64,000 nt of DNA. It comes from Babesia bigemina. Its lineage: Eukaryota. Positions 39,455-39,937 of this stretch are shown piece after piece (position 1 is the first letter of the stretch; the number at the start of each line of letters is the position of its first letter). Location of the stretch: the NCBI RefSeq assembly GCF_000981445.1, contig NC_027218.1, positions 2,418,001-2,482,000 of the forward strand, read 5' to 3'. Both the position numbers and the translations under genes were made by a program. Under the pieces are notes generated by a model, which had not been told where the DNA came from, did no database searches, and saw only the letters and a list, made by a program, of their open reading frames with translations.

Positions 39455-39937
39455 AACTCGCACTTGACGTTGCCGCGAGGCCGCACCCTACTTCCTGTAG
39501 GGTCGCCGCGGCCGGCGGTGAGGCTCAGTCGTATTCGTCAGGTGTGTCGGCCGCCCAGGCCCGCGCCTGCATAACCCTAAACCGCGGACCATCATCTATT
39601 GCCGTGCCCTCGGGTAGGCGTGCGCCATCCTAGGTGTGACCCCGGGGCGTCGGGTCCTCTGCCTGGCAGCGCTGAAGGCTCTAGTGTGTGTGTTCCGGAG
39701 TCGTTAGACACTGACCGGCGTCATCGCGAGCCCTCTGTCGCGTGTGAGCTGTGGCCCCAATGTGATTTCTGCCAAGTGCAGCCTGCGGCGTCTAAAGGTA
39801 TGAATGCGTACGGTCCTCTGTACGGCGGTTCGCCATGAGTTCGGCTCGGCCGCAGGTCACACCCGCCCACAACAAACTTGCCGGGCGTGCCTCACGCCAG
39901 GCACCGGTGCTCTACGACGACGGACACACGCTTTTTT
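39455..39937 (+). ncRNA. Candidate telomerase RNA (TER)
   Basis: Intergenic with no credible ORF. Template AACCCTAAACC at 39573-39583; boundary hairpin 39539-39569; closing helix 39460-66/39773-79; 3' multibranch domain 39781-39857; T6 at 39932-39937. Ends are estimated. Confidence 0.7.
39932..39937 (+). terminator. Possible Pol III terminator (T6) for the candidate TER
   Basis: First long T run downstream of the structured element. It could alternatively be part of the convergent FES1 3' region. Confidence 0.35.

What the first reader, a model, noticed from the sequence alone, without database searches (positions are those of the whole stretch)
39455..39937. Candidate Babesia telomerase RNA hidden between ATM1 and FES1
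Seen: this intergenic GC-rich stretch has no credible ORF yet folds extensively. It contains an 11-nt tract AACCCTAAACC (39573-39583), about 1.5 copies of CCCTAAA, with no obvious pairing partner. GCACTTG (39460-66) pairs perfectly with CAAGTGC (39773-79), closing a ~320-nt core around the template. A long 5' hairpin spans 39471-39520 (TGCCGC/GCGGTG, GGCCGC/GCGGCC, ACCCTAC/GTAGGGT). Known: telomerase RNAs carry about 1.5 telomeric repeats, a 5' template-boundary element, a pseudoknot within a core-closing helix and a separate 3' activating domain, and apicomplexan telomeres are TT(T/C)AGGG-like. Inference: this is the telomerase RNA gene, ~480 nt, templating GGGTTTA. I recall a much longer (~2 kb) TER in Plasmodium but no characterised piroplasm TER.
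Basis: partly seen in the sequence, partly recalled or inferred. Interest (0 to 1): 0.95.

Follow-up and report, generated by a model that had tools for sequence, protein, structure and literature searches.

The report
Babesia telomerase RNA with animal-like arm
A roughly 480-base non-coding stretch in the tick-borne blood parasite Babesia carries a telomere-repeat template and a small predicted hairpin matching one that human telomerase needs, so it is likely the parasite's undescribed telomerase RNA and would place that hairpin, described only in animals and fungi, in a distant branch of life.

Summary
The template tract AACCCTAAACC (39573-83) is the only match of 9 nt or more to the genus repeat TTTAGGG in the window.

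New evidence favours a telomerase RNA. A 5-bp hairpin ends 3 nt before the template, as in the Plasmodium RNA. 39781-39857 folds alone into a P5/P6/P6.1 three-way junction whose P6.1 matches human P6.1 at 10 of 13 positions, keeps the essential loop U and G, and arose in 5 of 1500 shuffles. A T6 run ends the GC-rich block. One tick RNA-seq contig lies only inside the stretch (weak hint).

Against: Verdict: likely (about 0.78) the telomerase RNA of a Babesia close to B. ovata. I found no piroplasm telomerase RNA in the papers searched. If functional, its P6.1 lies outside animals and fungi, where print places it.

The parts
39455..39937 (+). Candidate telomerase RNA gene; 3' end inferred from the T run, 5' end uncertain (about 39455 or about 39540)
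   Evidence: GC-rich non-coding block; no Rfam match
39459..39546 (+).
   Evidence: z -3.84 on +, -1.82 on -; G39480T in runs X1 and X3 breaks one pair
39556..39569 (+). Predicted template-boundary hairpin, 5 bp with a 4-nt loop, 3 nt 5' of the template
   Evidence: Sequence; such a hairpin stands before 3.3% of sampled window positions; pair probability 0.0-0.02 in unforced folds, 0.74-0.79 in some forced ones; Plasmodium has a 5-bp hairpin at the same place
39573..39583 (+). Template, 11 nt: 4-nt alignment part 39580-83 and 7-nt copied part 39573-79
   Evidence: Only match of 9 nt or more to the repeat in the window; no difference listed in X1; in X2 none listed, but 39573-76 lie too near the contig end to be checked; flanking base 39584 differs in both
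39781..39857 (+). Predicted CR4/5-like three-way junction: P5 39781-89/39849-57, P6 39797-39834, P6.1
   Evidence: Minimum-energy fold of the isolated stretch, z -2.08; P5 probability 0.87 in 39730-39937 but 0.05 in the full-length fold
39836..39848 (+). P6.1-like hairpin: 4-bp stem (one U-G) and 5-nt loop UUCGG of the NUNGN type
   Evidence: 10 of 13 identical to human P6.1 as printed in PMC2965242; inner three pairs at probability 0.92-0.93 in unforced folds; shuffle controls; no difference listed in X2
39879..39903 (+). Predicted 3' hairpin after an A-rich single strand (39868-77); role unknown
   Evidence: Pair probability 0.55-0.98 in unforced folds
39932..39937 (+). T6 run at the end of the GC-rich block, a likely RNA polymerase III terminator
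   Evidence: Only run of 4 or more T on + between 39341 and 39960
36800..39026 (-). Flanking gene: ATM1-like ABC half-transporter (context)
   Evidence: PF00664 and PF00005; ORFs
39977..40997 (-). Flanking gene: FES1-like protein with introns (context); its stop codon lies 40 nt from the T6 run
   Evidence: Weak PF08609; Babesia homologues at 58-66% identity

Best explanation
This stretch is likely the telomerase RNA gene of a Babesia, predicted to be read on the + strand and to end at the T6 run. Shown: the template sequence, the complementary arms, the P6.1 sequence match and the T run. Inferred mechanism: the telomere end (...GGTT) would pair with 39580-83, TERT would copy 39579 to 39573 to add one TAGGGTT unit, and the hairpin 39556-69 would stop copying before non-telomeric bases. 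The junction at 39781-39857 would bind TERT and switch on catalysis through the loop U and G of P6.1, as CR4/5 does in vertebrates and filamentous fungi. Transcription by RNA polymerase III is inferred only from the T run. The helix that closes the core and any pseudoknot are unresolved.
For: Template unique in the window, in 5 of 100 shuffled windows, and compatible with TTTAGGG of B. caballi and B. bovis; Babesia has TERT (PMC5405514, passages). Boundary hairpin: 3.3% background; same 5-bp size and 11-nt template length as in P. falciparum (PMC2695484 supplement 10). P6.1: fits the published definition, 4-bp stem and NUNGN loop (PMC3592445); differs from human only at the non-conserved G308 position and the end pair, which still pairs. 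In 1500 shuffles of the 348 nt 3' of the template: 420 had some P6.1-type 13-mer, 5 had it inside such a junction, 0 had the 10 fixed letters; in the window 2 of 103 descriptor matches lie in such a junction. In run X2, 0 of 16 listed differences fall in the 58-nt junction core (p 0.02, partition chosen after looking); one turns a P6 G-U into G-C and one breaks the helix that competes with P5. RNA run X2 has one contig, at 39558-39876, and none on the flanking coding ends within 38900-40200 (weak).
Against: No pseudoknot: 52 of 60 shuffles give one as stable. Whole-stretch z only -1.80. In the full-length unforced fold P5 has probability 0.05 and the boundary hairpin 0.0. No snRNA-type promoter: the element shared by U2 and U4 is absent, and similarity to the U6 upstream region is not significant (that test also missed the U2/U4 likeness, so it is weak). 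Strain-level differences in X1 are not fewer here (6 in 266 nt) than in flanking non-coding DNA (4 in 336 nt). G39480T breaks a 5' hairpin pair and G39813A the P6 loop-closing pair. X2 contigs give no strand, DNA carry-over is not excluded, and 4 of its 20 differences are unlisted. No distant homologue was found, and the species' own telomere repeat could not be read. The junction criteria were set after I saw the candidate.
Confidence: 0.78

Rival explanations
1. The stretch is the long 3' untranslated region of FES1 (minus strand) and the promoter or 5' leader of ATM1, and the telomerase-like motifs are chance.
For: Both flanking genes are on the minus strand and the FES1 stop lies 40 nt from the T run. 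X2 is an oligo-dT library and its contig has no strand. Overall folding is weak, and strain variation is not reduced.
Against: Template, adjacent hairpin, P6.1 junction and T run all read correctly on the + strand in the expected order. Multiplying the three chance rates (0.05 per window, 0.033, 0.0033) gives about 1 in 1000 for a 13-Mb genome, before allowing for hindsight. The X2 contig does not continue into FES1.
Confidence: 0.12
2. It is another structured non-coding RNA that Rfam does not recognise (for example a diverged RNase P/MRP, SRP or H/ACA RNA), with a chance telomere-like tract.
For: GC-rich block ending in T6. The unforced fold pairs 39686-95 with the 3' end into a long rod. 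ANANNA at 39869-74 and ACA three bases before the T run.
Against: No Rfam match even at E 10 on three stretches. By eye I saw no RNase P/MRP or SRP signature motifs (motifs recalled, not tested by a tool). X1 changes the first A of the ACA. This reading does not explain template and P6.1 together.
Confidence: 0.08
3. It is a telomerase RNA relic or second copy, and the working gene lies elsewhere in the genome.
For: No pseudoknot or promoter found; the rest of the genome could not be searched.
Against: All recognisable elements are intact, and no difference is listed in the template or P6.1 in the field runs that cover them.
Confidence: 0.02

Closest known systems
Plasmodium falciparum telomerase RNA (PF3D7_0918500, 2148 nt; PMC4183507 passages; PMC2695484 supplement 10)
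   Same: Apicomplexan; 11-nt template for a 7-nt repeat; a 5-bp, 4-nt-loop hairpin directly 5' of the template.
   Different: About a fifth of the length and GC-rich instead of AT-rich; 3-nt linker between hairpin and template; no internal T runs, whereas the Plasmodium RNA has long ones. Whether Plasmodium has a P6.1 I could not read.
Vertebrate and filamentous-fungal CR4/5 domain (P5/P6/P6.1; PMC2965242, PMC3592445, passages)
   Same: Three-way junction 3' of the template core; 4-bp P6.1 with NUNGN loop; 10 of 13 letters as in human P6.1.
   Different: Host is an alveolate; template-adjacent hairpin instead of the vertebrate P1 boundary; no U-rich pseudoknot found; H/ACA end not supported; T6 end.
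Plant, ciliate and Blastocystis polymerase III telomerase RNAs (PMC8287931, passages and section 29)
   Same: Same megagroup; size within 140-500 nt (PMC11892584); T-rich end; template-adjacent boundary hairpin.
   Different: These lack P6.1 (PMC8480181, PMC3592445) and have a conserved upstream element and pseudoknot, neither found here.
Trypanosoma brucei telomerase RNA (PMC5175330, passages)
   Same: A template core without a pseudoknot, with boundary hairpin and a separate distal activating element.
   Different: Its distal element lacks P6.1; different supergroup.

Membership tests
Telomerase RNA | Template of about 1.5 repeats complementary to the telomere repeat | tested here: met
   11 nt, 7+4; repeat taken from B. 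caballi and B. bovis, not from this species
Telomerase RNA | Telomere repeat of this very species matches | not testable with these tools
   No genome held
Telomerase RNA | Template-boundary element 5' of the template | tested here: met
   5-bp hairpin 39556-69 present as sequence, 3.3% background; forms only in some forced folds
Telomerase RNA | Pseudoknot with U-rich loop 3' of the template | tested here: inconclusive
   No compact H-type knot above chance, 52 of 60 shuffles as good; search limited to 39584-39772 and short first loops; absent in trypanosomes
Telomerase RNA | Core-enclosing helix | tested here: inconclusive
Telomerase RNA | Template-distal activating element (CR4/5 or equivalent) | tested here: met
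   Predicted junction with P6.1; structure not probed
Telomerase RNA | Expressed as a discrete RNA on the template strand | tested here: inconclusive
   One unstranded RNA-run contig inside the stretch
Telomerase RNA | Conserved with covariation in related species | not testable with these tools
   Only near-identical runs found; no homologue in viral or metagenome scans
Telomerase RNA | Binds TERT and directs repeat synthesis | not testable with these tools
   Needs bench work
Plant/ciliate polymerase III telomerase RNA | Type-3 promoter element shared with snRNA genes | tested here: inconclusive
   U2/U4 element absent as an exact motif, U6 likeness not significant; only three snRNA genes available
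Plant/ciliate polymerase III telomerase RNA | T-rich terminator and no internal T runs | tested here: met
   T6 at 39932-37, none of 4 or more from 39341
Animal/fungal CR4/5 | 4-bp P6.1 stem with NUNGN loop in a P5/P6/P6.1 junction | tested here: met
   fourth pair is U-G
Animal H/ACA telomerase RNA | Hairpin, H box, hairpin, ACA three bases from the 3' end | tested here: not met
   Motifs present, but X1 changes the ACA (one contig, depth 5.5) and the isolated 3' tail folds into two hairpins rather than one
Rfam families (incl. vertebrate and ciliate telomerase, RNase P/MRP, SRP) | Covariance-model match | tested here: not met
   No match at gathering score; only unrelated chance hits at E up to 10

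The most novel reading that the evidence does not exclude
Piroplasm telomerase uses a compact, T-run-terminated RNA whose activating domain is a true animal/fungal-type CR4/5 with an essential P6.1. P6.1 would then be either ancestral to most eukaryotes and lost in plants, ciliates and trypanosomes, or reinvented almost letter for letter under the constraint of TERT binding.
Probability: 0.5. Interest if true: 0.87.

Novelty: new variant of a known kind. Interest (0 to 1): 0.76.

Why it matters
A 2022 paper states that telomerase RNA inference failed for Apicomplexa (PMC9841428, passage); apart from Plasmodium I found none described. This locus would give the first piroplasm telomerase RNA and a seed for searching Theileria, Cytauxzoon and coccidia. 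Print holds that CR4/5 with P6.1 arose on the animal-fungal line (PMC5175330, PMC8480181). A working P6.1 in an alveolate would overturn that or show strong convergence, and either can be tested by two point mutations. Babesia divides continuously in blood and keeps variant-antigen genes near telomeres, so its telomerase is also a possible drug target (inference).

Tried and rejected
Homologue hunting: an 18-nt template pattern in viral contigs gave 0. The FES1 alignment in metagenome contigs gave 594 pattern hits, 0 confirmed. A 17-nt pattern gave 48 loci, all chance: longest alignment 26 nt, mean flank identity 25%. A JGI member of a FES1 cluster was an unrelated 48-aa peptide. No whole genome was held. 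Earlier scan notes held nothing on this genome or sequence; one search listed eight telomerase candidates in other genomes, not used. The parts not covered by X2 are only a weak hint. A wider comparison of the runs (a silent stretch for X2, a divergence baseline) was not obtained. Pseudoknot search: nothing above chance; the perfect crossing helices 39633-41/39855-63 and 39660-67/39896-903 would put the junction inside the knot, unlike known layouts, and have probability 0.0 unless forced. Promoter: two partial look-alikes (39401-11 to the U4 element, 39484-94 to the shared CACCC) seen by eye, neither tested as significant. H/ACA reading set aside because of A39926G in X1. Protein-coding reading rejected. 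Contamination by a vertebrate RNA rejected: one X1 DNA contig runs from 39842 into FES1 coding sequence and the template is for the 7-nt repeat. The paper that first described the Plasmodium RNA is not held, and the supplement of PMC8287931 could not be read; either may bear on novelty.

Full report
Setting. The window is from a Babesia: the right-hand flanking protein has its best relatives in B. bovis, B. ovis and B. gibsoni at 58-66% identity, and a kinase of the window is 91% identical to a B. ovata protein. B. bigemina is my inference from that; no call names it. The stretch lies between an ATM1-like ABC transporter and a FES1-like gene, both on the minus strand. It has no ORF over 47 codons, low coding score and no Rfam match. 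No whole genome is held.

Checking the observation. All named sequences are at the stated places. The template tract is the only match of 9 nt or more to the repeat in 64 kb, and an 11-nt match occurs in 5 of 100 shuffled windows. That is still about ten chance matches in a 13-Mb genome, so the tract alone proves little. The 5' hairpin is well above chance (z -3.84). The whole stretch is not (z -1.80).

Template and boundary. TTTAGGG is the reported repeat of B. caballi and B. bovis (PMC10463595, passages), and Babesia has TERT (PMC5405514, passages). The 11-nt tract gives 4 nt of alignment and 7 nt to copy. A 5-bp hairpin with a 4-nt loop (39556-69) ends 3 nt before it; such a hairpin precedes 3.3% of sampled window positions. 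The P. falciparum RNA also has an 11-nt template with a 5-bp hairpin directly 5' of it (PMC2695484, supplement 10). The hairpin forms only in some constrained folds.

The activating domain. Folded alone, 39781-39857 gives a three-way junction: a 9-bp P5, a long P6 and a short third hairpin (z -2.08, 7 of 200 shuffles). That hairpin, 39836-48, fits the published P6.1 definition of a 4-bp stem and NUNGN loop (PMC3592445, passages). It matches human P6.1 as printed in PMC2965242 (passages) at 10 of 13 positions. The differences are G308, which that paper calls non-conserved, and the end pair, A-U against U-G. Controls: of 1500 shuffles of the 348 nt 3' of the template, 420 hold some P6.1-type 13-mer, 5 hold it in such a junction, 10 hold the GAG-NUNGN-CUC form and 0 hold the ten fixed letters. 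In the window 2 of 103 descriptor matches sit in such a junction; the other, at 47073, lies in an ORF. I set the junction criteria after seeing the candidate. In the full-length free fold the inner P6.1 pairs stay (0.92-0.93 in the folds) but P5 is displaced by a rival helix (0.05). Multiplying the chance rates for template, hairpin and junction gives about 1 in 1000 per genome; this assumes independence and should be inflated perhaps tenfold or more for hindsight.

Related sequence. Three public runs hold parts of the stretch; I laid these and one of the two added runs on 38900-40200. RNA run X2 (tick metatranscriptome, oligo-dT) gave one contig, 39558-39876, with 20 differences in 319 nt, 16 of them listed. 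It does not reach the flanking coding ends. Contigs give no strand or ends and DNA carry-over is not excluded, so this is a weak hint. None of the 16 falls in the 58-nt junction core (p 0.02, partition chosen afterwards). DNA run X1 keeps the template. It loses T39547 and has A39926G, which together read as a U-A to C-G switch in a helix 39540-47/39926-33; the two changes are on different contigs and are one event at most. X1 and X3 both break one pair of the 5' hairpin. X1 differences are not rarer in the candidate (6 in 266 nt) than in flanking non-coding DNA (4 in 336 nt). No distant homologue was found.

What was not found. No compact pseudoknot beats chance (52 of 60 shuffles as good); trypanosome telomerase RNA also lacks one (PMC5175330, passages). 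U2 and U4 of the window share an upstream element that the candidate lacks as an exact motif, and likeness to the U6 upstream region is not significant. The 5' end is therefore open. An H box and an ACA three bases before the T run are present, but X1 changes the ACA.

Mechanism. Shown: sequence of template, hairpin arms, P6.1 match, T6 run. Inferred: + strand transcription ending at the T run; pairing of the telomere end with 39580-83 and copying of 39579-39573; stop at the boundary hairpin; TERT binding and activation through the junction, by analogy with vertebrate and Neurospora CR4/5, where the loop U and G are essential. I put the telomerase reading at 0.78, FES1 untranslated region with chance motifs at 0.12, another non-coding RNA at 0.08 and a relic copy at 0.02.

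Comparison and novelty. It works like a telomerase RNA with a CR4/5; membership rests on three features met by prediction, three inconclusive and three untestable here. Searches for a piroplasm telomerase RNA (listings only) found none, and PMC9841428 (one passage) says inference failed for Apicomplexa. PMC8287931 and PMC12133305 do not mention Babesia or Theileria in their main text. PMC5175330, PMC8480181 and PMC11892584 (passages) place P6.1 in animals and fungi and say that plants, ciliates and trypanosomes lack it or use other elements. The original Plasmodium paper is not held, the supplement of PMC8287931 could not be read, and RNA databases beyond Rfam were not searchable, so prior description is not excluded. 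Also read in passages without changing the result: PMC5855555 (with section 9), PMC4183507, PMC12210458, PMC10100673.

Verdict. Likely a new variant of a known kind: a compact piroplasm telomerase RNA with an animal/fungal-type activating junction. Interest 0.76; 0.87 if P6.1 proves functional.

Noticed in passing
window 24663-24857 (-), 59885-60015 (+), 42344-42449 (-): U2, U4 and U6 snRNA genes. U2 and U4 share an upstream element ATGGGGT-N10-TCACCCG-N-TT-N-GTGTG and a downstream box GGGGCTAACAATC; the TCACCCG half and the box occur only at these two genes in the window. Likely the piroplasm snRNA promoter and 3' box.
   Followed up: partly
window about 42502-42513 (-): U6 upstream region holds a CCCCACAT motif about 60 nt before the start, one letter off an upstream element listed for a green alga in PMC8287931.
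   Followed up: partly
window 24828-24812 (-): U2 has an extra U and a G-to-U change just before the branch-site pairing sequence compared with the Rfam consensus.
   Followed up: no
window 39869-39874 and 39926-39928 (+): An ANANNA box and an ACA exactly three bases before the T6 run, as in H/ACA RNAs; run X1 changes the ACA.
   Followed up: partly
window 40162-40197 (-): A 36-nt in-frame GT-AG intron in the FES1-like gene, seen as a 12-residue insertion against Babesia homologues. Some database models fuse this gene with the upstream ORF (P0011, P0013).
   Followed up: partly
window 47073-47085 (+): A second P6.1-type hairpin in a predicted junction, inside a long ORF and with no template nearby; probably chance.
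   Followed up: no
window 25251, 25501 and 32001 (96-nt windows): Strong local folding (z -3.9 to -4.3); the first two lie in a long ORF upstream of U2.
   Followed up: no
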